Positions 1-28,027 of a stretch of 64,000 nt of DNA are shown here, one piece after another; position 1 is the stretch's first letter; every line of letters starts with the position of its first letter. The DNA is taken from positions 565,414 through 629,413 of the forward strand of contig JAXLWW010000001.1 in NCBI GenBank assembly GCA_046328265.1. Reading direction: 5' to 3'. Source of the stretch: Dehalococcoidia bacterium. GTDB lineage: Bacteria; Chloroflexota; Dehalococcoidia; SpSt-223. Below the pieces are notes generated by a model. That model was not told the DNA's origin and made no database searches. It saw nothing but the letters and a program-made list of their open reading frames with translations. The position numbers and the translations under genes were made by a program.

Positions 1-2162
1 GCGCGCTGCAGATTGTCGTCGTCGCGGCACTGCTTCACGATATAGGCGTTCTCGCGCAACGCTCGATGGATAGCTCCGGCCCGACGACTGGGCATGCAGC
101 GCTCGCTGCTGCCTTTGTCGCCGAGCGTGCTCCCGCGCCATTTCGTGAAGCGTCATCGCTGATTCTCGCCCACCATCGGCCCGACGACCGGCTAAGCCGG
201 ATACTCGAGGCCGCCGATCGGATCGCTGCAGCCGGCCCGGACGACGAAGACGCCGGTCGGCCGATCCTGCAACGGCGGTCGGCGATCCCGGCTATTTCCC
301 ACGACCCAACAACGCCCGCGCGTACCACGTCGTTCTTCGAGGTCGGGTCGCTTCCCAGTTCGCTCGAAGCGAATGCCCCACGCACCAGCCCGATGGAGCG
401 CGACGAGGTGCGCCGCCGACTGATCAGCCTGGCCGAGATGATTGCTACCGAACATATCGCCGCCGCGAGCCCGGACTTCACCTGCTATGTCCGCGGTCTG
501 CTCGACCTGATCGATCGGGTCGCCTGCTTCGCTCCAGCGCCGTCGCGCGAACCAAGTAATGACATCTCGCTTGCCACGCACCTTCGCTTGACCGCCGCAC
601 TGGCAGCTTGCCTGCTTCGCGATGATACCGACGACGCGACGCTTGGAGCCCTTGTTGCCGAGGACGGCGGATCGCTCGACGCGCCTGTTGCCGTGCTCGT
701 TTCCGGAGTGCTGAAGCGACATCCCACGCGTCCGGATAGCACGCTCAGCCTTCCGATGCTCCAGGCTCGTGCCCTGCTAGACGGCGAATTGACGTCGGCG
801 GTCGAGGATTGGCTGCTGCGCTCGCTCGACCTTCCGCCGGTCTGTCGGATTGCTGGAAGCAGCGAGGGGTTCCTTCTGCTGGTTCCGTTGGCCGCTCAGG
901 ACCGACTGCCGTCGATCGCCCTCGATCTCGAGCGCCGGCTACTCGATGGTGGTGGGGAAACCGCTGCCCGGCTTGCCTGGGAGCCGATATCCGGCCGTGG
1001 TATCGCCAACCGTGCCGGAACGCTGGTCGCCAACCTGGCCAGACAGCGCTCGGCGCCGCGGCCGTTTGGTTCGACGTCGGCGGCGGATCTCAGTCGGTTG
1101 TTTGCCGCCCGCGACCCCGACGACGACGATCGAGCAGCCGAGTTGGGCCAACTCGCCGACCAACTTCGCCAGGCTAGTCATTTGCTGGTAGCGGACGTCG
1201 AGGAGCCACTCGGACCCGTGCGGATCGTCGAGCGACCGTTGGCGGCCTTCGGCCGATCGATCGTAGTGGTGGCTGGCGCCACGCCGCCTGACCTCCCAGC
1301 CGGGGCGCGACGGGCGCGTCTGGAACGCTTTGGTCAGAGTGGCCCACATGAGGCCAGTTGGCGTGCCTGGGCGCAACGTCAATCGGCTCCGGTTGCCCTC
1401 GTCAGTCGACCGCCTTTCTCCCCGGCCAACGACGACTCGTCTGGGCTCTTGGTGCTCGATCTCGATTCGTCGAGGGATCTCCTCGCCGAAGGCCTGGCCA
1501 ACGCGCCCTTGGCTCGGGTGATCGATCTCTTGGGATTGCTCCAGCATTTCCTGCGGACGGTTGCGCCGATAGCCGCAGCCGAGCAGTCGGGCGTTCCGGT
1601 TGCGCTCGTCGCGACGGGCGCCGACGACCTGACGGTGGCTGCGCCTCCAGAAGCGTTGCCAAGAATTGGTTTCGCGGTTGCCCAGAGTCTGGCGGCGATC
1701 ACCGGCGAGCATCCGGCGCTTCGCTTGAGCGCCGCGGTGGCCCCGATCGGTCGTCCGGCTCAGGCCATCGCCGCAGCGGAGTGGCTCCTGCGCCAGTCCG
1801 CCAAGCGATACCGGCGCGTATCTGGTCGAGAAAAGGACGCCATCGCCCTGTTTGGCGGTACGGTTGGTTGGGACGAGTTCCCGGCGGTCTGGGAGCGCTA
1901 CACTCGCCTCAACGATCTCATCGGCAAACGGCGAGTATCACCTCGGCTGCTCGCCATCCTTCAGGCCGTCGATCGTGGCGGCGTTTGGAGGGCGACCTAC
2001 GACCTTCGCCAAATGTCCCAAGGTGGACGATTGCCGGAGGCGGACGCCGCCACCTTTGCCGCGGAGTTGGCACGCCCTGACAGTGCGGCTCGCCTCGCAC
2101 TCGCCGCCCGTTGGGCGGAGACAGCAGTTCAATCGCGCAACGCGGAGGCACGCCATGAATGA
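1..2162 (+). CDS. cas10: Cas10/Csm1 large subunit of a type III CRISPR-Cas effector, 5'-partial (about 10-20 codons lost at the window edge). HD domain present; palm GGDD replaced by GADD; no CxxC zinc finger.
   Basis: The reading frame is open from position 3, upstream of the annotated ATG at 66. It translates ALQIVVVAALLHDIGVLAQRS, which matches the N-terminal HD motif of Csm1 (consensus ...YGALLHDIGK...), followed by a second His cluster (ILAHHRPDD). Palm-2 strand LLVLDLDSS (DxD) and ALVATGADDLTVAAPPE sit where Cas10 has the GGDD motif. Size is ~710 aa. Genes immediately downstream are csm2-csm5. Confidence 0.8.
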   Translation, partial: ALQIVVVAALLHDIGVLAQRSMDSSGPTTGHAALAAAFVAERAPAPFREASSLILAHHRPDDRLSRILEAADRIAAAGPDDEDAGRPILQRRSAIPAISHDPTTPARTTSFFEVGSLPSSLEANAPRTSPMERDEVRRRLISLAEMIATEHIAAASPDFTCYVRGLLDLIDRVACFAPAPSREPSNDISLATHLRLTAALAACLLRDDTDDATLGALVAEDGGSLDAPVAVLVSGVLKRHPTRPDSTLSLPMLQARALLDGELTSAVEDWLLRSLDLPPVCRIAGSSEGFLLLVPLAAQDRLPSIALDLERRLLDGGGETAARLAWEPISGRGIANRAGTLVANLARQRSAPRPFGSTSAADLSRLFAARDPDDDDRAAELGQLADQLRQASHLLVADVEEPLGPVRIVERPLAAFGRSIVVVAGATPPDLPAGARRARLERFGQSGPHEASWRAWAQRQSAPVALVSRPPFSPANDDSSGLLVLDLDSSRDLLAEGLANAPLARVIDLLGLLQHFLRTVAPIAAAEQSGVPVALVATGADDLTVAAPPEALPRIGFAVAQSLAAITGEHPALRLSAAVAPIGRPAQAIAAAEWLLRQSAKRYRRVSGREKDAIALFGGTVGWDEFPAVWERYTRLNDLIGKRRVSPRLLAILQAVDRGGVWRATYDLRQMSQGGRLPEADAATFAAELARPDSAARLALAARWAETAVQSRNAEARHE

Positions 2163-2655
2163 AGCCCCGGAGCGTCGCGGACCCCCGCGCCAGGGCAACG
2201 CACCCCGGCCAGGCGGGCCGCCACGCGGCGACCGCCGACCGCCAGAACCGTACCGCCCGATCGACCCGAAGGACTTACGAGCGATTGTGGTAGATGGCAA
2301 CGCTGCCGCGACCGTCCAGGAGGCGCAACGTCTGGCTCGGGTGCTGGCCGGCGAGCGGCTCGAAGCGCGCCACGCGACCAGTGGAGCGTTGCGGACGCTC
2401 TGGGGAACGTTGCGGGAAATGGCGATTGACTGGCCAGTCGCAGCGGGTGGCGGTCTGCCCTTGCTTAAGCCGAGGCTTGCCTACCTTGCTGGCCGGGCTG
2501 GCCCGGCAGGACGCGGGGTTGGCGACCTTCAGTCGGTGATCGCGCCGGCGATTGACCTGGTGGGCGATGACCGGGACCGTTTCGATCACCTCGTCGATTT
2601 TGTCGAGGCCGTGATGGCCTATTACTTTGCCGGGCCGCAGTTCGGCGGCCGCTAA
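2155..2655 (+). CDS. csm2: Cas11/Csm2-like small subunit. Start overlaps the cas10 stop (ATGAATGA).
   Basis: 166-aa ORF lying exactly between cas10 and csm3. About 40 aa of Pro/Arg/Gly-rich low complexity at the N-terminus, then ~125 aa of predicted helical sequence (DLRAIVVDGNAAATVQEAQRLARVL...FDHLVDFVEAVMAYYF). Position and size fit Cas11; sequence similarity alone is weak. Confidence 0.5.
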   Translation: MNEAPERRGPPRQGNAPRPGGPPRGDRRPPEPYRPIDPKDLRAIVVDGNAAATVQEAQRLARVLAGERLEARHATSGALRTLWGTLREMAIDWPVAAGGGLPLLKPRLAYLAGRAGPAGRGVGDLQSVIAPAIDLVGDDRDRFDHLVDFVEAVMAYYFAGPQFGGR

Positions 2656-2670
2656 CTGAGGAGGACCGAG

Positions 2671-3483
2671 ATGGCCGACGGAACGCCGACCACGCTCTTT
2701 GGACGCATCATCTGCCGCGCCGTCGTCGAGGTCGAAACCGGGCTGCACGTCGGTGCAAGCACCGCAAGTGGCGCCGTGACCGGGCTGGACTTCCCGGTGG
2801 TGCGCGACGCTTTGACCGGCCAGCCGTACTTGCCAGGGTCGTCGCTCCGCGGGAAGTTGCGCGCCGAAACGGAGCGACTACTCGGGCTTGCGCCAAATGC
2901 GTCGGGCCGTGGCGGCCCGCAGTTCTACGTTCCGCAGAACCAGGCTGACTACGATTCAAACCCGATCGGCCGGTTGTTCGGCGTGCCAGGTGCTCGTTCG
3001 TTTCGGGTGGATGCCGCGGCCCGGCTGGTTGTGCGCGACGCCTTCCTGACACCGGACAGCGCTGCCGCGCTCAAACGAGCACGCACCGACCTCCCCTATA
3101 CCGAGGTGAAGGCCGAAGCCGCGGTCGACCGGATCACCGCTGAAGCGTTGCCTCGCCACATCGAGCGTCTGCCGGCGGGAGCGCGTCTCGGTCCGCTCGA
3201 ACTGGTCTACAGCGTCTATACCGCCCAAGACCTCGCCGATTTCACCTGGGTCGCTCGCGGCCTGCAACTGGTCGAGGACGACTATCTCGGCGGGCATGGA
3301 TCGCGCGGCAGCGGGAAGGTGCGATTCCGCGATATCGAGGTGGTGGTCCGGTCGCGCGCTGCCTATCGTGGGGAGGAGGGCGGCGCATTTGACCCTCGGA
3401 GGTTCGACGATGTCGGCACGTTGATTGCTGGTCTCGACGAACTCACGGGAGCGATCCGGACGGCGCTGGCGCTGCCCGCGTGA
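2671..3483 (+). CDS. csm3: Csm3 (Cas7-family RAMP backbone subunit). The putative target-RNA cleavage Asp is retained.
   Basis: Strong SD (GAGGAGG) 7 nt upstream of the ATG. Hallmark motifs GLHVGAS, GLDFPVVRD (Asp-containing loop), YLPGSSLRGKLR (Cas7 G-rich segment) and the C-terminal glycine-rich loop GGHGSRGSGKV. Confidence 0.85.
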   Translation: MADGTPTTLFGRIICRAVVEVETGLHVGASTASGAVTGLDFPVVRDALTGQPYLPGSSLRGKLRAETERLLGLAPNASGRGGPQFYVPQNQADYDSNPIGRLFGVPGARSFRVDAAARLVVRDAFLTPDSAAALKRARTDLPYTEVKAEAAVDRITAEALPRHIERLPAGARLGPLELVYSVYTAQDLADFTWVARGLQLVEDDYLGGHGSRGSGKVRFRDIEVVVRSRAAYRGEEGGAFDPRRFDDVGTLIAGLDELTGAIRTALALPA

Positions 3484-4409
3484 ACCTGACGCTGCTTCGC
3501 CTTCAGCCGAGAGGGCCGTTCCATTTTGGGACCGACCACACCGGTGCGCCTGCGCCGGTGATCGGCTCGGATACCCTCTTTAGCGCGGTTTGTCTGGCCC
3601 TGCGCGACCTGTTTGGTCCGGTGCGGCTGACCAGCTTCGTTCGGGTGGTGCGCAGTGCCGCCGACCCGCCGTTGCGGCTCTCGAACGCGATGCCCTTTTC
3701 GGGGAACGTGCTCTTTCTGCCCGCACTTTCAGGGGATGGCTGGGTCTCGCAGTCGCTATTTGAGGCGCAGATCGCCGGCGAGCCGCTACCAGAAACGCGG
3801 CACTTGCAGGCCGGCTGGCTTCAGGCATGCGAAGCCGACGACCTGCCAGTGGAGCGAGTATGGACGGTCGATCGCCGGCGACGGGTGCGGCTCGGAGCAG
3901 GAACGCCGGAGCCGTTCGAGGACAGCGCTGTGCGCTTTGCCTCCGGCTGCGGACTGGCAGTGCTGGCGTTGATCGACGCTGAGTGGCGGGACGACGTGCT
4001 TGCGGCGATCCGCTCGCTTGGTGACAGCGGGATTGGCGGACGGCGTTCGACCGGCGCTGGACAGTTCGATCTGGCGGTCGAATCACTCGACCTCCGCGTG
4101 CCGGATGCGCCGACGGCCTACTGTACGCTGTCGTATTACCTACCATCCGCACGTGAGCTTGAGCAGGGTGTCCTGAACGAGCCGGCTCACTACCGGATCG
4201 ACGACCGGACCGGCTGGACGAGCGGGCCAGCCGGCAGCTTTCGACACCGTTCGGTTCGGATGATTACCGCTGGTAGTGTCGTCGCGCCGGTTGACTCCCG
4301 GCCGCCGGTTGGTCGGCTCGCCGACGTCACACCGACGGGCTTTCGTGATCACGAGGTACTTCGCGCCGGTTGGAGCTTCCCCATCGGCGTTCGGGGTGGC
4401 GCTGCATGA
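3480..4409 (+). CDS. csm4: Csm4 (Cas5-family RAMP). GTG start overlaps the csm3 TGA (GTGA).
   Basis: N-terminus LLRLQPRGPFHFG...GSDTLFSAVCLAL matches the Csm4 signature (hSDTLFSAL). Glycine-rich loop GDSGIGGRRSTGAGQF. 4-bp overlaps with both neighbours. Confidence 0.8.
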   Translation: MNLTLLRLQPRGPFHFGTDHTGAPAPVIGSDTLFSAVCLALRDLFGPVRLTSFVRVVRSAADPPLRLSNAMPFSGNVLFLPALSGDGWVSQSLFEAQIAGEPLPETRHLQAGWLQACEADDLPVERVWTVDRRRRVRLGAGTPEPFEDSAVRFASGCGLAVLALIDAEWRDDVLAAIRSLGDSGIGGRRSTGAGQFDLAVESLDLRVPDAPTAYCTLSYYLPSARELEQGVLNEPAHYRIDDRTGWTSGPAGSFRHRSVRMITAGSVVAPVDSRPPVGRLADVTPTGFRDHEVLRAGWSFPIGVRGGAA

Positions 4410-5923
4410 GCGATGTGGCCCGCAACTACCGGCTCGTCGTCGACGTTCTGTCGCCGCTGGCGATTGGCTCAGGTGATTTGCCGCTTCTTCCGGAGTACGA
4501 CTACCTCGCGGACGAGGGTGCGCTGCTGGTGTACACCGCGGCGGCTGCGCGTGGTGATGATGGGCGATTGTATGGACGGCCCGACCCGGCCTATCGGCTG
4601 CCGTTTGGCGGCGTCGAGACCCGGGTCCGCTCCGACCGGTGATCAAGGACGTTCTTGGCGCTCCCTACCTGCCGGGAGCGCCCTGAAGGTGCGCTGCATA
4701 CCGGCATCGCCTCGGCTCTTCTCGAACGTGAGCGCGCGGTCGGCCGTCCGCTCAAGAAGGACGATATTGCGCCATCGGCGCGGTTCGCTGCGCAGCCAGT
4801 CGAGCGTCGGCTGTTCGGTGCACAGCCGCGAGCGAGCGGGTTGCGCGCGTTGCGAGTGAGTGACGCGATTGCCACCGAGGGAACGCGCCTCGCGCTCGCC
4901 GCCGTCCGCACCTGTGGGGTCGACGAGGGGAAGCTGGCCGCGTTATCCGAGAGGTTGGCGATCGAGGTGATCGCGCCTGGTGGGCGACTGGTCGGGTCCC
5001 TGACGATCGACGGCTCGTTCCTCGAGCAGACCGGCACGCGTTTCGAGGGAACGCCCAATCGCGGCGAGATCGGCGAGACGATCGCGCTTGCTCGCGAAGA
5101 AGGCCGTCGCCGGGCGGCCGCCGAGCGCGCCTATTTTGCGAGCGCAGGCGCGTCGGCTCTGGTTGCGTTGTTCGATGGGCTGCTCGCGTTGATCGGTACG
5201 GCCGGTGAGAACACCATGCTGGTCCAACTGGGCTGGGGAGCCGGTTGGGATTCGAAGAGCTTTGGCCCGGCGTTGACGGCCAGCGGCGACTGGCCGGCGA
5301 TCCGCGAGGAGTTCTTCGGTGGGCGAGGACGGCGCCCGGACCGCGGACGCTCTGGCGAGCGGCCACGTCCCGGCGAACGACGCTCTGGCGGTGGACGCCG
5401 TCCATCTGGGTTTCCGTCGACGCGCAAACTGGCCGATCAGGCCGGAGGACCGGGCTTTCCGCTTGGCTGGGCGCTTGTCTCTCTTGTTCCCGTCGGTGAG
5501 GCACTTCCGCTCCAAGCAACGATGCCAGCCGCCTGGCAGGATGACGCGTTCTTGGTCCAGGAGCGGGGCGCCGGTGGCGCACCAAGTCGCGCTGTTGAAA
5601 GTGTCGCACCGGCGTCGCCTTTCGCCGCGCTTCAGGCGCTGCTTAGTCCGCAGGCCGCGCCTGAGGAGCAGGGCGAGTCCGCACCTCCTCCGCCGATCGC
5701 CCGAATCGCCGATCGGGCGCTGAAAGTGGGGACGATACTCGACGCCGAGGTGGTCACGATCGAGGCGGCCAGGATCTTGGTCGATGTCGGGCGGACCGAC
5801 CCAGCCGCCCTTGATGCGGCGACCATCGGTGGCGGCAACCTCGAGGTGCGCTACCAGGTCGGACAGCGCCTACGGGTGCGGGTCATTACGCCGCCACCCT
5901 TCTTCCGCATCCGGTTGAGCTAA
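4406..5923 (+). pseudogene. csm5: Csm5 (Cas7-family RAMP) with its reading frame broken inside the conserved G-rich motif. ATG overlaps the csm4 stop (ATGA).
   Basis: N-terminal ORF MSDVARNYRLVVDVLSPLAIGSG... (Csm5-type LSPLHIGSG) ends at TGA 4640-4642. The hallmark ...VIKDVLGAPYLPG / SALK / GALHTGIASALLE... is spread over three reading frames within 4636-4700. A 422-codon ORF then resumes (4655-5923) carrying Csm5 C-terminal features (RALRVSD, LVQLGWGAGWDSKSFG) and an RG-rich insert. Confidence 0.7.
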
Positions 5924-8412: not shown

Positions 8413-8457
8413 TGAATGCCTCGTAGCACCGCAGTCGGCGTTGGGCCGGCAGTCTGG

Positions 8458-8529
8458 GCCGACGTAGCTCAATGGTAGAGCAGCGGTTTTGTAAACCGCC
8501 GGTTGCGGGTTCGAATCCCATCGTCGGCT
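8458..8529 (+). tRNA. tRNA-Thr (anticodon UGU).
   Basis: Cloverleaf: acceptor GCCGACG/CGTCGGC, D-arm GCTC-AATGGTA-GAGC, anticodon stem GCGGT/ACCGC with loop TTTGTAA (TGT), T-loop TTCGAAT, discriminator T. CCA not fully encoded. Confidence 0.9.
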
Positions 8530-8550
8530 CCCGGCTACGAGTGTGTCCCT

Positions 8551-8638
8551 GGTAGGGTGGCCGAGTGGTTAATGGCGTCGGTCTGTAAAACCGATGGGCG
8601 GAAGCTCTACACTGGTTCGAATCCAGTCCCTACCACCA
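8551..8638 (+). tRNA. tRNA-Tyr (anticodon GUA), type II with long variable arm and encoded CCA.
   Basis: Acceptor GGTAGGG/CCCTACC, anticodon loop CTGTAAA (GTA), long variable arm TGGGCGGAAGCTCTACAC, T-arm ACTGG-TTCGAAT-CCAGT, 3' ACCA. Confidence 0.9.
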
Positions 8639-8666
8639 GGGCCCTGCCGCATGGCAGGGCTTCTTG
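8639..8666 (+). terminator. Intrinsic terminator after the tRNA operon (also between convergent genes).
   Basis: Hairpin GGGCCCTGCC-GCAT-GGCAGGGC followed by TTCTTG. Confidence 0.6.
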
Positions 8667-8677
8667 AATCGGATGAC

Positions 8678-9130
8678 CTAGCGAGAGACAGGAAGCGGGG
8701 CGAGACAGTCACGCAAAGAGCGAAGCGATTGTTCCATCGAGGCGGCGATCTCGCGCTCGAAGAAGAGCCGGCCGATTATTTTCACCAATGGGAGGCTCGG
8801 TAGGACGATCGTCGTTTCGAGGGTGGCGAGCGTGCCCTCGGGGATCGGCTCGAATAGCCACCGGCAGGTACTGTCGGGTCCGTCAAGCGTCCGCGCCGCC
8901 ATCACGTGCGGCAGGGAGAACTCAGTCACTTCGCAGTTCGCCCTGAGCGGGAAGCCGCGGACATTCGCCTCCCAGGCGAAGCGGCTGCCCAACCCATAGG
9001 GACGGTCGCTTTCCGGGCGAAAGTCGGTGAGATACTGGATGAACCGCACCACGTTGCGATAGTCCGCAACATAATGGAAGACCTCGTCCTGCGGGGCGGA
9101 AATCCGGATACATCGAGCGAGCGCGATCAT
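8678..9130 (-). CDS. SRPBCC (Bet v1/START/polyketide-cyclase-like) family protein. The longest ORF extends to 9190; the likely start is the internal Met (MIALARCIRISAPQDEVF...).
   Basis: ~150-aa core with the typical N-terminal I.AP.e.V...v.DY pattern. Size and hydrophobic pattern fit the SRPBCC fold. Confidence 0.5.
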   Translation of the reverse strand: MIALARCIRISAPQDEVFHYVADYRNVVRFIQYLTDFRPESDRPYGLGSRFAWEANVRGFPLRANCEVTEFSLPHVMAARTLDGPDSTCRWLFEPIPEGTLATLETTIVLPSLPLVKIIGRLFFEREIAASMEQSLRSLRDCLAPLPVSR

Positions 9131-9247
9131 CGAAAATCCATTTCTCTGGTGCTTGGCCGTGTCGGCGCGGTACGTAGTCCGCTGGACCATGCAGTCCAGA
9201 CTGCGAATGACCCTAGCAAACCAGCCTGCTTACTTCCAGTAGAACGC

Positions 9248-9439
9248 TCATGGCTTCTTTGCGTTGCGCTTGCCGATGCGATCGAGCACCTTCGACAGCA
9301 GATACGCTAGGCCGAGCGCCGCCACCGTTCCCACCGCGTAGCTGAGCAGTTCGTCCGGTCCAAATTGGCCGTCGTGGAGCGGATATGCCGCCGGCAGACT
9401 GAGGAGAACTGTATACATGCCGCGGATAGTGTAGTCCAT
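9248..9439 (-). CDS. Hypothetical small membrane protein (63 aa).
   Basis: ORF with one or two hydrophobic helices and a basic C-terminus. No homology recognised. Confidence 0.25.
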   Translation of the reverse strand: MDYTIRGMYTVLLSLPAAYPLHDGQFGPDELLSYAVGTVAALGLAYLLSKVLDRIGKRNAKKP

Positions 9440-9459
9440 CAGCGGGGGCGCTGTCCGGG

Positions 9460-9936
9460 GTGGTATACTTGCCTATGCCCTCGAAAGAAGCTGGTGAGCC
9501 GCTTGCGGTCAACCGGAAGGCGTTTCACGACTATTTCATCGACGAGACGTTCGAGGCAGGTCTGGCGCTGACCGGCACCGAGATCAAGTCCGTGCGTAAG
9601 GGGAATATCAACCTGCGCGAGGGCTATGTTCGGCCGGAAGGCGGCGAGATGTGGCTGCTCGGGGTGCATATCGCACCGTACGAGCAGGGGAACATTTACA
9701 ACCACGACCCGAGGCGACGGCGTAAGCTACTGCTCCACCGGCGCGAGATTGTCGAACTCTCGGCCAAGGTGAAGGAAAAAGGGCTGACGCTCGTGCCGCT
9801 GCGGGTCTACATCAAGAACGACGTGGCAAAGCTGGCATTTGGCCTGGCGCGCGGCAAGAAGCAGCACGACAAGCGCGATGCCATCGCCGAGCGCGATGCC
9901 AATCGTGAGATTGAACGGGCGCTCAAAGTCCACTGA
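9460..9936 (+). CDS. smpB: SsrA-binding protein SmpB. GTG start at 9460, alternative ATG at 9475.
   Basis: AVNRKAFHDYFIDETFEAGLALTGTEIKSVR and GYVRPEGGEMWLLGVHIAPY match the SmpB consensus. Followed directly by the tmRNA gene. Confidence 0.9.
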   Translation: MVYLPMPSKEAGEPLAVNRKAFHDYFIDETFEAGLALTGTEIKSVRKGNINLREGYVRPEGGEMWLLGVHIAPYEQGNIYNHDPRRRRKLLLHRREIVELSAKVKEKGLTLVPLRVYIKNDVAKLAFGLARGKKQHDKRDAIAERDANREIERALKVH

Positions 9937-9963
9937 TCGCCGGCTCGATGCCGGCACAATCGC

Positions 9964-10317
9964 GGGGACGCCAGGTTTCGACAGAGGGGGAAGTGACGCG
10001 ATTGCGAGCCGAGGAAGCCGATCCACTCGTAAACGATTCGGCGTGCCATAACTGGCAACACCAACTACGCTCTCGCCGCCTAAACAACGGTGACGTCTAC
10101 CCTCTCCTCATCCCGGCGGGCGGGGAGTGGGCGCCATGCAGCCGGGATGCTCGCCCGTTGACGTCGATAGGACGGGCGCTAAGACCCATCGGCTAGCCCG
10201 GAGGAACCCCGTCGGTGGGGGACCTTCAGGCGAAGCTCTAAATCGCCGACTACGCTCGTAGATATCGCGCAGTGATCTGCTCTGGACGGGGAGTTCGATT
10301 CTCCCCCGTCTCCACCA
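9964..10317 (+). ncRNA. ssrA: tmRNA (ssrA), 354 nt. Encoded tag ...NTNYALAA followed by TAA.
   Basis: 5' GGGGACGCCAGGTTTCGAC... and 3' ...GGACGGGGAGTTCGATTCTCCCCCGTCTCCACCA form a tRNA-Ala-like acceptor/T-arm with the G3:U wobble. Internal ORF ggc aac acc aac tac gct ctc gcc gcc taa at 10052-10081. Confidence 0.9.
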
Positions 10318-16645: not shown

Positions 16646-17722
16646 TTGGCGCGGAGGTGTGGAGTGACCGCAAATCAGACGCGGGAGATCCGAACGCCGC
16701 GCTTCACTCGCGGTCCGGTGCGAATCGCCTACGACGTCCATGGCCATGGTGAACAAACTCTGGTTGTCATCCCCGGCTTTGTCAGCCACCTTGACTACGA
16801 CTGGGAAACCCCGGCGATACGTGGGCTTTACCAAAGGTTGGGGAGCGATCGCCGGCTGATCCGCTTCGATCGGCGCGGCACCGGTCTGTCTGACCGGCCG
16901 AGCGATCCGGAGGCGTACTCGCCCGAGGTTCAAATCGACGATGTGACGGCGGTGCTTGATGCAGCCGGGGTGCGACGGGCGGTGGTGTTTGCCTGGTCGA
17001 TCAGCAGTCCCATCGCCATCGCGTTTGCGGCGCGTTATCCCGAGCGGGTATCCCATCTGGTCCTCTATGGCAGCTTCGCCAGGCTCTTTCCCGGCCTGGG
17101 CTACCCAGCCGGCGTTGATCCCACGCTCTTCACCGCGCTGCTCGATATCGTCCGTGTCGAATGGGGCCTTGGTTCTCGTGCCCTCGCCGACGCATTCATC
17201 CCCGAGGCCGACCTCGAGCAGTTGGCCTGGTTCGCCGCCTATCAACGGGTGGGAACATCGCCGCAAGCGATGGTCGCGTTCGCGACGGCTGCCGGCCAGG
17301 CCGATCTGAGGCCGCTCCTGCCACTGGTCACGATGCCGGTGCTCGTACTCCACCGGCGCGAGGATCCGATTGTCCCGTTTGCTCTTGGCGAATACCTTGC
17401 CGGGAACCTTCCACAGGCGACGCTTCGCGATTTCCCCGGGCCACACCACTTGCCCTACCTCGGCGAGACCCAGCCCCTGACCGACGCCGTCACCAGCTTC
17501 TTGCGCGCCAGTTCGGGCGAGGGCCTGGCCCACACACTGAGCCCCCGCGAACTTGAAGTGTTGCGGCTGCTCGCCGAGGGACTGCAAAACCGCGATATCG
17601 CCAGCCGGTTGGGCGTCAGCCCGGCGACCGTTCGCCGCCACCTCGCAAACACCTTCATCAAGTTGGACGTGTCCACGCGCGCCGGCGCCGCGGCGTTCGC
17701 CTTCCGTCACGGGTTGGTCTAG
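16646..17722 (+). CDS. Two-domain protein: N-terminal alpha/beta-hydrolase fold fused to a C-terminal LuxR-type HTH.
   Basis: HGHGEQTLVVIPGFVSHLDYDW...AWSISSPIAIAFAARYPERV (nucleophile-elbow-like AWSIS) and C-terminal LSPRELEVLRLLAEGLQNRDIASRLGVSPATVRRHLANTFIKL (LuxR/GerE HTH). Confidence 0.75.
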   Translation: MARRCGVTANQTREIRTPRFTRGPVRIAYDVHGHGEQTLVVIPGFVSHLDYDWETPAIRGLYQRLGSDRRLIRFDRRGTGLSDRPSDPEAYSPEVQIDDVTAVLDAAGVRRAVVFAWSISSPIAIAFAARYPERVSHLVLYGSFARLFPGLGYPAGVDPTLFTALLDIVRVEWGLGSRALADAFIPEADLEQLAWFAAYQRVGTSPQAMVAFATAAGQADLRPLLPLVTMPVLVLHRREDPIVPFALGEYLAGNLPQATLRDFPGPHHLPYLGETQPLTDAVTSFLRASSGEGLAHTLSPRELEVLRLLAEGLQNRDIASRLGVSPATVRRHLANTFIKLDVSTRAGAAAFAFRHGLV

Positions 17723-22671: not shown

Positions 22672-23610
22672 CTAACAAGCCCCTTGATTGTTCTGTTCGG
22701 TGGGCGATGGTTCTAGTTCGTGAGTTTCGAGAACGATCCACCCGTCGCCTTTGACTGCATTCTTGCCAACGTGGATAACCTCCCCCCATCTTAGCCAGGG
22801 GAGCAAGGGGGAGAGATCGCCGCGCCAGGTGGCCTGGCCAACGAGACCGCCGGTAGGAGTGACGCGACCCGAGCGGCGCGATCCGCTCCAGGTATCCCGC
22901 CAACGGGTAGAGTCCTCCATCAACACGGCTGCGCTTGCCGGTCTGCCAAGGTCGTGATCGAGCGAACGCCAGGCTTCGGGCGGTGGCGGACCGTCGCCAT
23001 AGAGGGTCGAGAGTGCCTCGACCCGCTCGAGGAGCCGACGTAGGAGAATACTCAGGTCAGGGCTTCGGACGAGCGCCCCGCGCTCGGTCAGGCGTAGAGG
23101 CGTCTTGAGGTCAATGGTGAGTGCGCTTGCTGCGCCGCCGGCTACCACATCGTCCGTTACGTCACCGTCTTGGTTGTCGCGCGGCGAGCGGCGCATGACC
23201 GAATCGAGTACCGAACGTCCGCGGCCACGACCAATCCCGTGCTCGGCGGCAAGCACAATTGCTGTGCTGACCGCGTCTTCGAAATCAATGGCCGGCCCAA
23301 TCAGGGTAACGCCGACGCGCCAGGTTTCGCCGACGGCTGCCGTCGCGTTCTCAGGTTCGATTGTGAAGGGGCGAGGTAGATCGCGCCCACGCGGCCAGGC
23401 CGGGTCGGTCCCACCCACCAGCAAGCAGAACGGACATGTTTGACGATGGTCTGGGTTGGGGGCGGGACCGTCGGGACAGGCAAGAGCACGAAGCGCGGTG
23501 ACGAACGCGCCGCGGAGCGCCGAGCCGGGATTGCTTCCCAGGTCGATCAGGTCGAAAGCACGCAGGGTAAACCAAAGCCGCCGCGCTCGCAGCCCGGTCT
23601 GGAGCGTCAC
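22672..23610 (-). CDS. Cas6-like RAMP-fold protein (solitary). GTG start overlaps the aceE stop (GTGA).
   Basis: N-terminus RLWFTLRAFDLIDLGSNPGSALRGAFVTALRAL and C-terminus GLVGQATWRGDLSPLLPWLRWGEVIHVGKNAVKGDGWIVL resemble the Cas6 pattern (G.vG.v...gd..l..ll.lgE..hvGk.t..G.G), including the G-x5-G-x-G glycine-rich loop. No CRISPR repeats adjacent. Identification is from remembered family signatures only. Confidence 0.45.
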   Translation of the reverse strand: MTLQTGLRARRLWFTLRAFDLIDLGSNPGSALRGAFVTALRALACPDGPAPNPDHRQTCPFCLLVGGTDPAWPRGRDLPRPFTIEPENATAAVGETWRVGVTLIGPAIDFEDAVSTAIVLAAEHGIGRGRGRSVLDSVMRRSPRDNQDGDVTDDVVAGGAASALTIDLKTPLRLTERGALVRSPDLSILLRRLLERVEALSTLYGDGPPPPEAWRSLDHDLGRPASAAVLMEDSTRWRDTWSGSRRSGRVTPTGGLVGQATWRGDLSPLLPWLRWGEVIHVGKNAVKGDGWIVLETHELEPSPTEQNNQGAC

Positions 23611-25994
23611 GCCGCGAGATCGAGTGCCGCAAACGCTGCGGCGATGATCGCGTCGGCGTCAATGCCGAAATGGCGATAGAGGTCGGCACGCGTCCCGGAT
23701 TGACCAAACTGATCGACGCCCAATGGAACGACCGGAGCGCCGAAGATGCCACCCAGAAAGGCAAGGCCGTGTGATGCGCCATCGGCGACGGTGACGATTG
23801 GCGCTCGCCGCTCGTCCCCCGGAATGAGTGTCTCCAACTGGCCGAGGCTGCTCGTCCCGCCGGCGCGCTGATGGCGTCGTCCGGCTGTTGCCGATACAAA
23901 GAGCCGGTTTGCGCTGGTGATGGCCAGAACGTTGGCCGCGACGCCTTCCCGGTGCAGTCGGCGAGCGGCCTCGACCGCCTCCGGAGTCATGGTTCCAGCG
24001 ACGGCGATCTGGACGATTGCCGACGGATCCGTGTCGGGCGCATCGTAGCGAGCGTCAATCAGCCGATAGCCGCCGGTCAGGACCTGACGCCGAAGCTCCT
24101 GTTCGCCGAGTCTGGCGAGCGCGCCATCGAGCAGTTGTTGGGCCAATGGTTTTGTTGAGAGCCGCAGATATGTGGAGCGCCCGTGCTTGCGGTCGGCGCA
24201 CTGACGCAGAGCTTCGAGCAGGATCCATTCGACTTCGCGGGCAAAAGCCGGCTCGTAGCTGATCAGGTTTGGCAGTTCCAGGCCGAGAGATGGAGTGACG
24301 GTCGATTGGTGTGCTCCACCTTCCGGGCTGAGCGAGATCCCAGACGGCGTACCGACGACAATGAACTTTGCTTCCGAATACAGACCGTGGATAAAGGCGT
24401 CCAACCCGCGAAGGACAAAGGGGTCGTAGACGGTCCCGATCGGGAGCAGAAGTTGGCCCAACAACTCTTGAGAAAGCCCGAGTTGCTCGAGCAGCAAGAA
24501 CAGGTTCATTTCCGAGATGCCAAGCTCGATGTGCTGGCCGGTTGGGCTGGGCTGCCAGCGTACCGGTTGCGGGCCCGTCTCGAAACTGTCCTCACCGGTC
24601 GCACTATAGACCCCGACGCGGTTGATCCAGCCGCCAAGGTTGGTCGAGACCGCGACGTCCGGCGCGACGGTGACGATCCGGGCGCCGATTTCCGGCAGGC
24701 GCGACAGTTCGACCAGCAACCGGCCGAGCGTCTCCTGAGTTGAGGTGATGGAAAGCGGGCGATGATCGATCTGGGGCGGGATGTCGTCGGGCGTCAGGGC
24801 AAGCACGTCGGATGGTTCGGCTGGTTCGCGAAGCCGGTTGGTCGCACGCTGACACAACTCCGCCTCGAGCGTGCCGCTCGGAAAGCGCGGCCATTCGTCC
24901 TCCGACGGGATACCCAGTCGAACCGCCAAGTCCTCCACCTGCTTGCCGGTCAGCAGGGCCGAATGGTTGAGCGGGTGACCGGCAATCGGCAACCCCCAGC
25001 CCTTGATGGTGTAGGCGAACACGACGCTCGGACGGTCGCGAACGCTGGCGGCTTGGTGAAGCACTTTCAGCAGTTCGCCAATGTCATGGCCACCAAGGTC
25101 GCTCAGCAAGTCGGGAATATCGGCGTCTGCGAAGAGCGCGAGCGCGCGCTCGACGCCGGCTGGGTCATCCGACCCGACGATAAGGCGCTCGCGGCAAATC
25201 GCGCCAGGCAACCGGATCGCCGCCTGGTATTCCTCGTTGCTCATGTCGTCAATTCGGGTGCGAAACGCTGCCCCACCTGGTCCAGCGAACACCTGCTGCA
25301 GTCGTCGGCCATATTTCGCTTCGACGACATGCCAGTCGCTGTCGCGAAACAGGGCTTGGAGTTGGCGGGCACGGATACCCGGGACGACCCGGTCAAGGCT
25401 CTGTCGGTTGAGATCAACGATCCAGATGACATTGCCAACATCGCGCAGATGCTCCTCGGTCACGGCCTCCCAGACGTTCCCTTCGTCCAGTTCCGCGTCG
25501 CCGACGAGCGCGATATACCGGCGATCTTCTGGGCCGCCGAAGTGAAAGCGGACATAGCGATCGGCGAGGGCGGCAAAGGCCGGCGCGGCAGCGCCTAGAC
25601 CGACCGATCCTGTCGAAAAGTCCACCGGGTCCGGGTCTTTCGTTCGACTTGGGTAGGCCTGAAGTCCGCCGAAACTGCGCAGGGTGGTGAGGTAGCGACG
25701 GTCGAGATTACCCAGCAGGTATTGGACAGCGTGATAGGCTGGCGAGGCGTGCGGTTTGACCGCCACGCGATCACCGGCGCGGAGAAACGAAAAGTACAGC
25801 GCCGTCAACGTCGCGACCATCGATGCCGACGAAGCTTGATGGCCACCGACCTTGGTGCCATCGACATCAGGACGGAGATTGTTGGCGTGGTGGACGATGT
25901 TCGTCGATAGCCAGAGCACTCGGCGTTGGATCCGATCGAGTGCGGCAAGTTCCTCTGGAGACGGCAGCCAATCGTGTGCCGGAGCTTGACGCAT
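23607..25994 (-). CDS. aceE: Pyruvate dehydrogenase E1 component, homodimeric AceE type (ThDP-dependent). Start placed at the ATG with a strong SD; the longest ORF begins at GTG 26054.
   Basis: Blocks collinear with E. coli AceE: LDRIQRRVLWLSTNIVHHAN, GGHQASSASMVATLTALYFSFLRA, FSTGSVGLG, LVGDAELDEGNVWE, VIWIVDLNRQSLD, and C-terminal FGQSGTRADLYRHFGIDADAII. SD AAGGAGG lies 6 nt before ATG 25994. Confidence 0.9.
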   Translation of the reverse strand: MRQAPAHDWLPSPEELAALDRIQRRVLWLSTNIVHHANNLRPDVDGTKVGGHQASSASMVATLTALYFSFLRAGDRVAVKPHASPAYHAVQYLLGNLDRRYLTTLRSFGGLQAYPSRTKDPDPVDFSTGSVGLGAAAPAFAALADRYVRFHFGGPEDRRYIALVGDAELDEGNVWEAVTEEHLRDVGNVIWIVDLNRQSLDRVVPGIRARQLQALFRDSDWHVVEAKYGRRLQQVFAGPGGAAFRTRIDDMSNEEYQAAIRLPGAICRERLIVGSDDPAGVERALALFADADIPDLLSDLGGHDIGELLKVLHQAASVRDRPSVVFAYTIKGWGLPIAGHPLNHSALLTGKQVEDLAVRLGIPSEDEWPRFPSGTLEAELCQRATNRLREPAEPSDVLALTPDDIPPQIDHRPLSITSTQETLGRLLVELSRLPEIGARIVTVAPDVAVSTNLGGWINRVGVYSATGEDSFETGPQPVRWQPSPTGQHIELGISEMNLFLLLEQLGLSQELLGQLLLPIGTVYDPFVLRGLDAFIHGLYSEAKFIVVGTPSGISLSPEGGAHQSTVTPSLGLELPNLISYEPAFAREVEWILLEALRQCADRKHGRSTYLRLSTKPLAQQLLDGALARLGEQELRRQVLTGGYRLIDARYDAPDTDPSAIVQIAVAGTMTPEAVEAARRLHREGVAANVLAITSANRLFVSATAGRRHQRAGGTSSLGQLETLIPGDERRAPIVTVADGASHGLAFLGGIFGAPVVPLGVDQFGQSGTRADLYRHFGIDADAIIAAAFAALDLAA

Positions 25995-28024: not shown

Positions 28025-28027
28025 GGG

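What the first reader, a model, noticed from the sequence alone, without database searches (positions are those of the whole stretch)
1..5923. Type III (Csm-type) CRISPR-Cas effector cassette with no array, cas6, adaptation or CARF genes downstream
The cassette cas10(HD)-cas11-csm3-csm4-csm5 is compact and overlap-coupled (ATGA/GTGA junctions) and runs into the 5' window edge. The next 58 kb hold no repeat-spacer array. The only cas6-like gene is 17 kb away, and there is no cas1/cas2 or csm6/csx1/can-type ancillary gene. Only one Csm3-type Cas7 is present, and csm5 is disrupted. Either the array and cas6 lie just upstream of the window, or this is a degenerating or orphan effector module. The subunit set (single Cas7 backbone paralogue, Cas10 without zinc finger) is also not the textbook III-A layout.
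Basis: partly seen in the sequence, partly recalled or inferred. Interest (0 to 1): 0.6.

Follow-up and report, generated by a model that had tools for sequence, protein, structure and literature searches.

The report
Stripped-down type III-A CRISPR effector operon
This is a real, selectively maintained CRISPR type III-A effector operon in a Dehalococcoidia genome that appears to have lost its alarm-signal chemistry and sits far from any repeat array; the apparent broken gene is probably a sequencing artefact.

Summary
The cassette is real: cas10(HD)-csm2-csm3-csm4-csm5 at window 1-5923, all best-matching III-A models.

The window has no array, cas1, cas2 or CARF/SAVED gene. Its only cas6 is at 22723-23610 (-).

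The csm5 "disruption" is three 1-nt homopolymer deletions within 66 bp. A 99.86%-identical independent assembly has an intact 506-aa csm5, so this is probably a long-read artefact.

The gene directly upstream of cas10 is a housekeeping bifunctional nuclease, not an array or cas6. The same holds in five related lineages (Cas10 54-57% identical), none with an array within 10 kb. Every cas gene shows dN well below dS, so the module is conserved and vertically inherited, not decaying.

What is unusual:
- Cas10 keeps its HD residues but has lost the zinc finger and the Palm1 GDxSGIQ motif. GGDD is degenerate (GADD here, xxDG in relatives).
- Csm5 carries a conserved C-terminal S1-like domain.
- cas6 is translationally coupled to an aceE-like gene.

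Best reading: a reduced III-A variant without cOA signalling, guided from unlinked arrays. Whether such arrays exist is untested.

The parts
1..2162 (+). cas10/csm1, large subunit. It is 726 aa in full; the GTG start lies 19 nt before the window. HD motif LLHDIG at 30-47, HH at 168-188, Palm2 DxD at 1455-1472, degenerate GGDD (T-G-A-D-D) at 1614-1628. No zinc finger and no Palm1 GDxSGIQ motif.
   Evidence: TIGR02578 Csm1 4.9e-42 (144.5 bits, below the 170-bit cut-off) and Pfam HD. PADLOC Cas10/Cas10a match residues 12-350 only. Full length comes from L001. Motif states come from alignments A1 and A3 and a profile search against PDB Cas10 chains.
2155..2655 (+). csm2 (Cas11 small subunit); overlaps the cas10 stop by 8 nt.
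   Evidence: PF03750 Csm2_III-A 4.1e-10, above cut-off. TIGR01870 3.4e-7. PADLOC Csm2.
2671..3483 (+). csm3 (Cas7 backbone RNase). The catalytic Asp codon is at 2788-2790, in the motif GLDFPVVRD.
   Evidence: TIGR02582 2.6e-57 (194 bits against a 90-bit cut-off). Aligns to solved Csm3 chains with the Asp of G(I/T)DNPV conserved.
3480..4409 (+). csm4 (Cas5 family); GTGA overlap with csm3.
   Evidence: TIGR01903 3.6e-48. PF17953 Csm4_C 5.5e-13.
4406..5923 (+). csm5 (Cas7 family, cap at the crRNA 3' end). It reads as two ORFs in the window (4406-4642 and 4655-5923) and as an intact 506-aa gene in L001.
   Evidence: TIGR01899 8.7e-10 on the window fragment. PADLOC Csm5 5.7e-18 on the intact L001 protein. 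Matches T. onnurineus Csm5 (6mur_F) up to about residue 331.
4619..4686 (+). Cluster of three 1-nt homopolymer deletions relative to L001 (after 4619, 4673 and 4685). They create a 22-codon out-of-frame stretch with TGA at 4640-4642.
   Evidence: Base-by-base comparison of the window with L001. The other 9 differences over 8.5 kb are substitutions, 7 of them synonymous.
5723..5920 (+). C-terminal S1-like (OB-fold) domain of Csm5, joined to the Csm5 core by an Arg/Gly/Pro-rich linker (about 5330-5720).
   Evidence: Conserved in the three orthologues with complete, unshifted csm5 sequences: L001, L004, L006. Pfam S1 is the only hit but below threshold (E 0.013, 0.14, 0.02). hhalign against an S1 profile gives 75% probability, E 2.5e-5, over 64 columns spanning the whole domain. 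The AF2 single-sequence model was too poor to use.
22723..23610 (-). cas6 (AF_1859_N + CRISPR_Cas6 family), unlinked from the csm operon in this genome.
   Evidence: PADLOC Cas6 PDLC01477 8.7e-62. 51-59% identical to the cas6 of relatives. The HxxxCPxC motif and the G-rich loop HVGKNAVKGDGW are invariant.
23607..25994 (-). aceE-like (pyruvate dehydrogenase E1 type) gene whose stop overlaps the cas6 start by 4 nt. The same coupling occurs in the relatives, where this gene lies between csm5 and cas6.
   Evidence: tblastn 80% identity to the L004 E1 gene. Pfam PDH_E1_M and transketolase domains in L004 and L006. Coordinates.

Best explanation
This is a functional, chromosomally fixed, reduced type III-A (Csm) interference module of a small Dehalococcoidia clade.

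Shown:
- The five subunit genes are intact in the population, conserved under purifying selection, and preceded by a conserved promoter-like motif (an invariant extended -10) and a conserved leader hairpin.
- Cas10 keeps its HD nuclease residues, and Csm3 keeps its catalytic Asp.
- Cas10 has lost the zinc finger and the Palm1 GDxSGIQ motif, and its GGDD motif is degenerate.
- No CARF or SAVED effector, cas1, cas2 or array lies near the operon in any of the six lineages.
- cas6 is kept but sits elsewhere in this genome, coupled to an aceE-like gene.

Inferred mechanism:
1. Cas6 cuts pre-crRNA from one or more arrays located elsewhere in the genome. Repeats are probably about 37 nt and end in ACTGAAA(C/G), as for this Cas6 family elsewhere.
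2. The Csm complex binds complementary transcripts.
3. Csm3 cuts the RNA, and the Cas10 HD domain cuts nearby single-stranded DNA.
4. No cyclic-oligoadenylate signal is made, which is why no CARF effector is kept.
5. The S1-like domain fused to Csm5 probably adds an RNA-binding surface at the crRNA 3' / target 5' end. It could take over part of the role that recruited S1-containing housekeeping RNases play in Staphylococcus.

The csm5 frameshifts in the window are most likely consensus errors of a long-read assembly.
For: Identity of the parts:
- All five proteins best-match III-A models.
- The Csm3 catalytic Asp aligns with solved Csm3 structures.
- HD residues H19, D20, H64, H65 and D79 are invariant across the clade and the outgroups.

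Reduced cyclase:
- Outgroup Cas10s carry GDxSGIQxFxYT, CxxC...CxxC, LRMDVDxLG and YSGGDDLFxVG. The clade lacks the first two.
- At GGDD the window has GADD; relatives have SADG (twice), TTDG, TWDG and TADG.
- None of these is among the motifs seen in effector-linked Cas10s (PMC11229360, read).
- Sister protein P0127 keeps SGGDD but already lacks the zinc finger, which suggests stepwise loss.
- Loss of cyclase goes with loss of CARF and SAVED genes in other subtypes (PMC12669027).

Maintenance:
- Conserved synteny holds across the five relatives. In all five, BFN sits directly upstream of cas10. In the four with longer contigs the order is GMC oxidoreductase, KGG protein, BFN, then cas10. Where the contig extends far enough downstream, cas10-csm5 is followed by E1 and cas6.
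- dN/dS is 0.05-0.3 for every cas gene.
- Identity to the window's lineage is lowest for Cas10, E1 and BFN alike, which fits co-divergence.
- An invariant GTGATATACTGC motif and a leader hairpin lie upstream of cas10 in all six lineages.

csm5:
- An intact 506-aa allele exists in a 99.86%-identical assembly. The three differences that matter are homopolymer deletions. 7 of the 9 SNPs are synonymous.

Upstream gene:
- BFN and Cas10 have consecutive NCBI accessions on the same 662,382-bp contig. L011 shows BFN plus an intergenic region homologous to the one in L006.

Cas6 family and its repeats:
- 29 of 80 distant Cas6 loci carry arrays of 37-nt repeats with a covarying stem and an ACTGAAAS tail.

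S1-like domain:
-.
Against: - No array was found, so the source of crRNA is entirely inferred. None was seen in the window, within 10 kb of the operon in five relatives, or as solitary cognate-type repeats (3 hits in the window against a shuffle mean of 0.9 and a shuffle maximum of 3).
- The window's own Cas10 retains both Asp residues (GADD) and the Palm2 DxD, so residual or altered nucleotide chemistry cannot be excluded for this lineage.
- Cas10 scores below NCBIfam's Csm1 cut-off, and the Pfam Palm2 hit is sub-threshold.
- The S1 assignment rests on sub-threshold Pfam hits and a 75% hhalign probability. Both structure models were unusable (pLDDT 48).
- dS is saturated, so the dN/dS values are rough.
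- Whether the csm5 frameshifts are errors cannot be settled without reads.
Confidence: 0.58

Rival explanations
1. Domesticated, array-independent effector. The clade has no CRISPR arrays at all. The Csm complex, fixed at a housekeeping locus and inherited vertically, is loaded with some non-CRISPR RNA, or with none, and serves a host function such as transcript-guided RNA or DNA surveillance or regulation.
For: - No array lies within 10 kb in any of the six lineages, and none in the 64-kb window.
- There are no adaptation genes.
- The chromosomal position is unusually stable, among housekeeping genes, with co-divergence.
- cas6 is co-translated with a metabolic gene.
- Signalling chemistry has been lost.
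Against: - cas6 is kept under purifying selection with its family hallmarks. That is hard to explain without repeat-containing substrates.
- Type III loci without adjacent arrays are common and usually use arrays in trans (PMC12669027; PMC11229360).
- Only about 20 kb per relative and 64 kb here were examined, out of Mb-sized genomes.
Confidence: 0.14
2. The module is a decaying remnant of a former III-A locus, csm5 is already a pseudogene, and Cas10 is losing its domains.
For: - The window has a stop at 4640 in csm5.
- The L002 csm5 is frameshifted in its linker, and its E1 gene is fragmented.
- Cas10 has lost motifs.
- There is no array, cas1 or cas2.
Against: - An intact csm5 exists in a 99.86%-identical assembly.
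- dN/dS is far below 1 for all six cas genes across saturated divergence.
- The catalytic HD residues and the Csm3 Asp are conserved.
- The promoter-like motif and the leader are conserved.
- The frameshifted copies are on very long MAG contigs (662 kb and 810 kb). From my recollection, not checked here, KatS3mg genomes come from long-read metagenomics, where homopolymer indels are expected.
Confidence: 0.08
3. Ordinary signalling-competent III-A, dispersed. In the window's lineage GADD plus DxD still supports synthesis of a nucleotide messenger. The effectors, array, cas1 and cas2 are simply encoded elsewhere in the genome.
For: - The window's Cas10 keeps both Asp residues of the GGDD position and the DxD.
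- A second-position variant, GEDD, occurs in effector-linked Cas10s (PMC11229360).
- Effector-less loci often rely on other loci in the same genome (same paper).
Against: - The Palm1 GDxSGIQ motif and the zinc finger are gone.
- All five relatives have xxDG, without the second Asp or either Gly, so any activity would be specific to this lineage.
- The C-terminal half of Cas10 fails to match Cas10 models at normal thresholds.
- There is no CARF or SAVED gene in 64 kb.
Confidence: 0.15

Closest known systems
Subtype III-A (Csm) systems, e.g. Staphylococcus epidermidis, Streptococcus thermophilus, Thermococcus onnurineus, Mycobacterium tuberculosis
   Same: - Same five genes in the same order (cas10-csm2-csm3-csm4-csm5).
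- Every protein best-matches III-A profiles.
- Cas10 has an N-terminal HD domain, and Csm3 has the catalytic Asp.
- The closest full outgroup locus (L095) is a textbook III-A: cas10-csm2-csm3-csm4-csm5, a Cas_Cas02710 (Csx1/Csm6-like CARF-family) gene, cas6, cas1, cas2 and an array.
   Different: - The Cas10 cyclase motif is degenerate, the Palm1 motif is lost and the zinc finger is deleted.
- No csm6/csx1.
- No adjacent array, cas1 or cas2.
- cas6 belongs to a different Cas6 family, one found in type I loci elsewhere.
- Csm5 carries an extra linker of about 130 aa plus an S1-like domain.
- The locus is syntenic and vertically inherited.
Subtype III-F (e.g. Thermotoga lettingae type)
   Same: - The functional profile is the same: Cas10 with an HD nuclease, no cyclase motif, no ancillary effectors, and usually no adjacent array or adaptation genes (PMC11229360; PMC12669027).
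- So this system probably works like a III-F: HD nuclease plus Cas7 RNase, without cOA.
   Different: - As I recall, III-F has a single Cas7 family gene and no Csm5, and its proteins form their own families.
- Here Csm5 is present, all subunits match III-A models, and the Cas7_IIIf model scores only E = 0.009.
- The nearest Cas10 relatives are III-A type.
[quoted passage not shown]
   Same: Reductive evolution: the cyclase is inactivated and the CARF and SAVED ancillary genes are lost with it. III-G and III-H also lack adaptation modules (PMC12669027).
   Different: - Those subtypes have Cmr-type subunits (III-C) or distinctive subunits (Csx26 in III-G; a divergent Cas11 replacing the Cas10 C-terminus in III-H).
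- Here the subunits are plain Csm2-5, and the C-terminal domain of Cas10 is retained.
Csm5-mediated recruitment of PNPase, RNase J2 and RNase R in S. epidermidis III-A
   Same: Csm5 is the subunit that interfaces with RNA-binding housekeeping nucleases for crRNA 3' maturation and target degradation (PMC5389561, PMC6447361 and PMC9762709, found).
   Different: Here an S1-like RNA-binding module appears to be fused to Csm5 itself. No paper in the searched library mentions Csm5 together with an S1 domain. The function is untested.

Membership tests
Type III-A (Csm) effector module | Cas10/Csm1 large subunit | tested here: met
   TIGR02578 4.9e-42 (144.5 bits, below the 170-bit equivalog cut-off). 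PADLOC Cas10/Cas10a 6.8e-21 over residues 12-350. A clade profile hits solved III-A Cas10 chains at 1e-8. The match is divergent but unambiguous.
Type III-A (Csm) effector module | Csm2-type Cas11 small subunit | tested here: met
   PF03750 40.9 bits against a 24.8-bit cut-off. TIGR01870 31.1 against 30.6.
Type III-A (Csm) effector module | Csm3 (Cas7) with the catalytic Asp for target RNA cleavage | tested here: met
   TIGR02582 194 bits against a 90-bit cut-off. The Asp in GLDFPVVRD aligns with G(I/T)DNPV of solved Csm3.
Type III-A (Csm) effector module | Csm4 (Cas5) and Csm5 present, in the order cas10-csm2-csm3-csm4-csm5 | tested here: met
   TIGR01903 164.5 bits against 55. TIGR01899 38.6 against 38.3 on the window fragment. 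PADLOC Csm5 5.7e-18 on the intact allele. Gene order.
Type III-A (Csm) effector module | Active Cas10 Palm/cyclase (GGDD or an accepted variant), which is near-ubiquitous in III-A | tested here: not met
   The window has GADD; relatives have SADG, TTDG, TWDG and TADG. Palm1 GDxSGIQ is absent. None is among the effector-linked motif variants listed in PMC11229360. Activity itself was not measured.
Type III-A (Csm) effector module | CARF-family ancillary effector (Csm6/Csx1) in the locus. This is typical, not obligatory. | tested here: not met
   None among 146 ORFs of the window. None in the Pfam annotation of the relatives' loci. The outgroup L095 has one.
Type III-A (Csm) effector module | Adjacent CRISPR array, cas6 and cas1-cas2. 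This is typical, not obligatory. | tested here: not met
   No array. cas6 is present but 17 kb away. No cas1 or cas2. The rest of the genome could not be searched.
Subtype III-F | Cas10 with an HD domain but an inactivated cyclase, and no ancillary effectors | tested here: met
   Description of III-F from PMC11229360.
Subtype III-F | A single Cas7-family gene with no Csm5, and III-F-specific protein families (criterion from my own recollection) | tested here: not met
   Csm5 is present. The Cas7_IIIf model scores E = 0.009 against 2e-58 for Csm3.
Subtype III-C / III-B (Cmr) | Cmr-type subunits (Cmr1, Cmr3-6) | tested here: not met
   Cmr4 and Cmr6 models give only weak N-terminal RAMP-motif hits (E 1e-6 to 0.07), far below the Csm models.
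S1 RNA-binding domain (PF00575), for the Csm5 C-terminus | Sequence match to the S1 profile over the whole domain | tested here: inconclusive
   Pfam S1 scores 13-16 bits against a 22-bit cut-off in three orthologues. A PDB profile search gave no hit. The AF2 model had pLDDT 48.

The most novel reading that the evidence does not exclude
The clade carries no CRISPR array anywhere. This Csm complex would then be a domesticated, vertically inherited RNA-guided or RNA-sensing nuclease at a housekeeping locus. Its Cas6 is co-translated with an aceE-like enzyme, and its Csm5 is equipped with an S1 RNA-binding domain. It would act on endogenous or non-CRISPR RNAs rather than as adaptive immunity.
Probability: 0.12. 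Interest if true: 0.8.

Novelty: new variant of a known kind. Interest (0 to 1): 0.45.

Why it matters
Surveys report cyclase domains as near-ubiquitous in III-A, with about 92-97% of all Cas10s predicted active (PMC11229360, PMC12669027). Named cyclase-less subtypes (III-C, F, G, H) all have distinctive subunit sets.

Here a plain Csm gene set shows what looks like stepwise loss within one small lineage:
- outgroups have the zinc finger and GGDD;
- the sister protein has no zinc finger but keeps GGDD;
- the window has GADD;
- the relatives have xxDG.

The CARF gene, cas1, cas2 and the adjacent array are missing along with it. That gives a natural series for asking which Cas10 elements are needed for signalling, and whether HD nuclease plus Csm3 RNase alone is enough for a selectable function.

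The apparent Csm5-S1 fusion would be a testable clue to how Csm5 engages RNA. The stable, syntenic position among housekeeping genes is unusual for a defence locus.

On the practical side, NCBI labels this Cas10 only as 'HD domain-containing protein', so such loci are easily missed.

Tried and rejected
- Close-relative scan of GTDB genomes with the Cas10 protein found nothing. A profile scan found only KatS3mg060, which was already in hand.
- A homologue search with the Csm5 C-terminal 101 aa returned nothing, and the search was wasted.
- The AF2 models of the Csm5 C-terminus (pLDDT 47.8) and of Cas10 with a 6-sequence alignment (pLDDT 48.0) were too poor, so no fold searches were run.
- phmmer of Cas10 against the PDB found no Cas10. 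Only the clade profile did.
- A PDB profile search with the S1-like domain gave no hit.
- The degenerate CRISPR-like repeats in L006 (28-36 nt, period 61-73) were checked in all other loci and in the window. They are specific to L006 and L007, so they say nothing about the window.
- The PADLOC 'CARF3/CasR' hits in the window trace to the LuxR HTH of ORF 16646-17719 and were rejected as CARF.
- The BFN nuclease upstream was considered as a Cas-linked accessory and rejected. It has thousands of homologues at about 70% identity across Dehalococcoidia and evolves like a housekeeping gene, with dN/dS of 0.02-0.07.
- Rfam at gathering threshold found only tRNAs and tmRNA.
- A planned covariance model of the Cas6-family repeat was dropped because variable loop lengths misaligned the stem. 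A stem-plus-tail pattern scan, with positive controls, replaced it.

Full report
**The observation.** Window 1-5923 (+) holds five tightly packed genes. HMM searches identify them as follows:
- Cas10/Csm1 with an HD domain: TIGR02578 4.9e-42; PF01966.
- Csm2: PF03750, above cut-off.
- Csm3: TIGR02582, 194 bits.
- Csm4: TIGR01903, 164 bits.
- Csm5: TIGR01899 on the window fragment; PADLOC Csm5 5.7e-18 on the intact allele.

All five best-match III-A models rather than Cmr, III-D or III-F models. The window cuts off only the first 19 nt of cas10. A Logan contig from SRR26348421 (L001, 8634 bp, 99.86% identical over 8505 aligned bases) supplies the GTG start and 110 nt upstream.

**What is absent.** I found no repeat-spacer array in the 64 kb, using TRF, a periodic k-mer scan, the repeat finder and Rfam. 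A PADLOC scan of 146 ORFs on both strands beyond position 5900 found Cas6 but no Cas1, Cas2, Csm6/Csx1, CARF or SAVED. The few 'CARF3/CasR' hits belong to the LuxR-type HTH (residues 294-341) of an alpha/beta-hydrolase ORF at 16646-17719. By inspection of the translations, partly confirmed with Pfam, the rest of the window is housekeeping: smpB and tmRNA, tRNAs, hisS, a sigma-70 gene, pheST, and rpsB-tsf-pyrH-frr-uppS-cdsA-dxr. The only cas6 is at 22723-23610 (-).

**The 'disrupted' csm5.**
- In the window, csm5 has an in-frame TGA at 4640-4642.
- Against L001 the cause is three single-base deletions, each in a homopolymer: CCCC>CCC at 4619, GGGG>GGG at 4673 and AAA>AA at 4685.
- L001 encodes an uninterrupted 506-aa Csm5 with the canonical PYLPGSALKGALH motif.
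- The other nine differences over 8.5 kb are substitutions. Seven are synonymous and two are conservative changes in the Csm5 linker. That is the pattern expected of a gene under purifying selection.
- The window's parent contig is 662 kb, which suggests a long-read assembly. A second very long MAG contig (L002, KatS3mg060) also shows frameshifts in csm5 and in the neighbouring E1 gene.
- I therefore rate a consensus error as the more likely cause, at roughly 3:1, but only reads can settle it.

**What lies upstream, and the relatives.**
- Cas10 has only six clusters in a 5.8-billion-protein collection, and one GTDB representative genome carries it.
- The five relatives (Cas10 54-57% identical to the window's) were recovered with up to 10 kb of flank.
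- In all five, a bifunctional-nuclease (BFN, PF02577) gene on the minus strand lies directly upstream of cas10.
- In the four with longer contigs the order is GMC oxidoreductase, KGG stress protein, BFN, then cas10-csm2-csm3-csm4-csm5. Where the contig extends far enough, an aceE-like E1 gene, cas6 and smpB/tmRNA follow.
- None of these loci has an array or a cas1, cas2 or CARF gene.
- For the window's own genome, the BFN orthologue (P0010) lies on the same 662,382-bp NCBI contig. Its accession (MFN8532461.1) directly precedes that of Cas10 (MFN8532462.1).
- A 1375-bp Logan contig from the same run shows BFN, a 193-aa ORF, and an intergenic stretch homologous to the BFN-cas10 spacer of L006.
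- So neither an array nor cas6 is 'just upstream'.
- BFN itself is housekeeping. It has thousands of homologues at about 70% identity in Dehalococcoidia and dN/dS of 0.02-0.07.
- In this genome the E1-cas6 pair has been moved 17 kb away and inverted, but it is still coupled by a 4-nt overlap.

**Not decaying.**
- Pairwise dN/dS is 0.14-0.29 for cas10, 0.05-0.13 for csm2, 0.08-0.14 for csm3, 0.12-0.27 for csm4, 0.19-0.23 for csm5 and 0.09-0.31 for cas6.
- Synonymous sites are saturated (dS above 1), so these values are rough, but dN is far below dS throughout.
- The window's lineage is the most divergent for Cas10, E1 and BFN alike, as expected for vertical co-divergence.
- Upstream of cas10, an invariant GTGATATACTGC (an extended -10 motif), a CTGCCG...CGGCAG hairpin and an AAGGGA ribosome-binding site are shared by all six lineages.

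**Cas10 is the unusual part.** An exhaustive profile search gave 1491 Cas10 relatives. It found the clade, one sister protein (P0127, 40% identity), and then a gap to 800-850-aa Cas10s. In the alignment with these outgroups:
- The HD residues (H19, D20, H64, H65, D79) are invariant.
- The outgroups have the Palm1 motif GDxSGIQxFxYT, a CxxC...CxxC zinc finger, LRMDVDxLG and YSGGDDLFxVG.
- The clade has lost the Palm1 motif, and the zinc-finger segment is deleted.
- The clade keeps the DxD.
- At GGDD the window reads G-A-D-D; relatives read SADG (twice), TTDG, TWDG and TADG. The HMMER alignment is one residue out of register. The MAFFT register is supported by the downstream Gly.
- The sister P0127 lacks the zinc finger but keeps SGGDD, which suggests stepwise loss.

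None of these motifs is among those Hoikkala et al. saw in effector-linked Cas10s (PMC11229360). Makarova et al. 2025 note that cyclase inactivation goes with loss of CARF and SAVED genes (PMC12669027). The closest outgroup with a full contig (L095) is a textbook III-A: cas10-csm2-csm3-csm4-csm5, a Cas_Cas02710 (Csx1/Csm6-like CARF-family) gene, cas6, cas1, cas2 and a 10-repeat array. In the clade, the slot between csm5 and cas6 is occupied by the E1 gene instead.

**Cas6 and its likely substrates.**
- The window's Cas6 keeps its family's hallmarks: HxxxCPxC and the HVGKNAVKGDGW loop.
- A metagenome scan returned 80 distant homologues at 31-38% identity.
- Of these, 29 have arrays, usually 2-3 kb downstream. 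The repeats are 37 nt, with a covarying 4-bp stem (ACCC/GGGT, ATCC/GGAT, GCTC/GAGC) and an ACTGAAA(C/G/T) tail.
- One such locus is type I: Cas3-Cas8a-Cas7-Cas5a-Cas6-Cas1-Cas2-Cas4.
- A stem-plus-tail scan recovered essentially all repeats in three control arrays. It found only 3 scattered hits in the window (shuffle mean 0.9, maximum 3) and one lone hit in the KatS3mg060 locus (L002, seen again in L003 and L008, which are other recoveries of the same genome).
- So the expected kind of repeat can be named, but none lies in the sequence available to me.

**Csm5 extension.** Solved Csm5 proteins align only to about residue 331. The remaining roughly 170 aa are an Arg/Gly/Pro-rich linker and a 66-aa domain, conserved in L001, L004 and L006. 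S1 is the only Pfam hit, below threshold in all three. hhalign against a small S1 profile gives 75% probability (E 2.5e-5) across the full domain. I call it S1-like and probable, not proven. No paper in the searched library links Csm5 with an S1 domain.

**Mechanism.**
- Shown: the parts list, their conservation, the retained HD and Csm3 catalytic residues, the degenerate cyclase, and the absence of linked ancillary genes, adaptation genes and arrays.
- Inferred: Cas6 processes pre-crRNA from arrays elsewhere in the genome. The complex binds complementary transcripts. Csm3 cleaves RNA and the HD domain cleaves DNA. No cOA is made. The S1-like domain helps hold RNA at the Csm5 end.
- In function this resembles III-F and III-C. 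In membership it is a III-A derivative that fails the 'active cyclase' feature.

**Limits.**
- Whole genomes could not be scanned, so the existence of arrays is open.
- Cyclase inactivity is predicted from motifs, and the window's GADD is the least degenerate version.
- Structure prediction failed.
- The origin of the frameshifts needs reads.

I rate this a new variant of a known kind, of moderate interest.

Noticed in passing
window 23607-23610; L004 18444-18447; L006 18444-18447: An aceE-like (PDH E1, about 795 aa) gene overlaps the cas6 start by 4 nt in every lineage where both genes are intact. In the relatives it sits between csm5 and cas6, where the textbook outgroup L095 has its CARF gene. 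The pair stayed together when it moved 17 kb away in this genome. E1 is 80-87% identical between lineages, so it looks like a housekeeping gene. Why cas6 rides on it is unexplained.
   Followed up: partly
L006 7340-7520 and 8630-9090 (also in L007): There are three families of degenerate direct repeats (28-36 nt, period 61-73 nt, 2-4 copies each) in non-coding DNA between the GMC oxidoreductase, KGG and BFN genes. An ATTGAAAC string lies nearby. This could be a fossil CRISPR array. It is absent from the other lineages.
   Followed up: partly
L001 50-110 (just upstream of window position 1); aligned in A8: An invariant GTGATATACTGC (extended -10 motif), a conserved CTGCCG...CGGCAG hairpin and an AAGGGA ribosome-binding site precede cas10 in all six lineages. 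The hairpin's role (leader structure or regulator site) is unknown.
   Followed up: partly
L013-L092 (80 metagenome loci): The Cas6 family with the HxxxCPxC motif is linked to 37-nt repeats with a covarying 4-bp stem and an ACTGAAA(C/G/T) 3' tail in 29 loci. One annotated locus (L013) is a type I system with Cas8a and Cas5a plus a WYL-domain gene.
   Followed up: partly
window 26073-29689 (-): A strong positive AT skew (+0.3) at 26-30 kb coincides with three consecutive polytopic membrane-protein genes (Nuo/Mrp-antiporter-like by eye) on the minus strand.
   Followed up: partly
window 8457-10317: tRNA-Thr, tRNA-Tyr, smpB (9460-9936) and tmRNA (9964-10317; tag GNTNYALAA) lie 2.5-4.4 kb downstream of csm5. 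In the relatives, smpB and tmRNA lie next to cas6 instead. hisS, the sigma-70 gene and the LOG gene, which lie upstream of cas10 in the relatives, are at 31-37 kb here in the opposite orientation. This shows several rearrangements around the locus.
   Followed up: partly
L002 14542-18560: In the KatS3mg060 MAG, csm5 is frameshifted in its Arg-rich linker and the E1 gene is broken into fragments. The Logan contig for the same organism (L003) ends just before the csm5 frameshift. This is either long-read indel error or real decay in that lineage.
   Followed up: no
window 16646-17719 (+): An alpha/beta-hydrolase fused to a LuxR-type HTH gives PADLOC 'CARF3--CARF' and 'CasR' hits down to E = 1.6e-7, through the HTH only. 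It is a trap for automated CRISPR-ancillary annotation.
   Followed up: yes
window 59862-59929: A 30-nt tandem repeat (2.3 copies, 78% matches) lies in a poorly coding stretch (58.8-60.0 kb) that has only doubtful ORFs. It was not examined.
   Followed up: no
L011 794-1375; L002 8560-9096: A conserved ORF of 178-193 aa with no Pfam match lies beyond BFN in the window's genome and in KatS3mg060. It is missing from L004, and repeat-rich non-coding DNA takes its place in L006.
   Followed up: no
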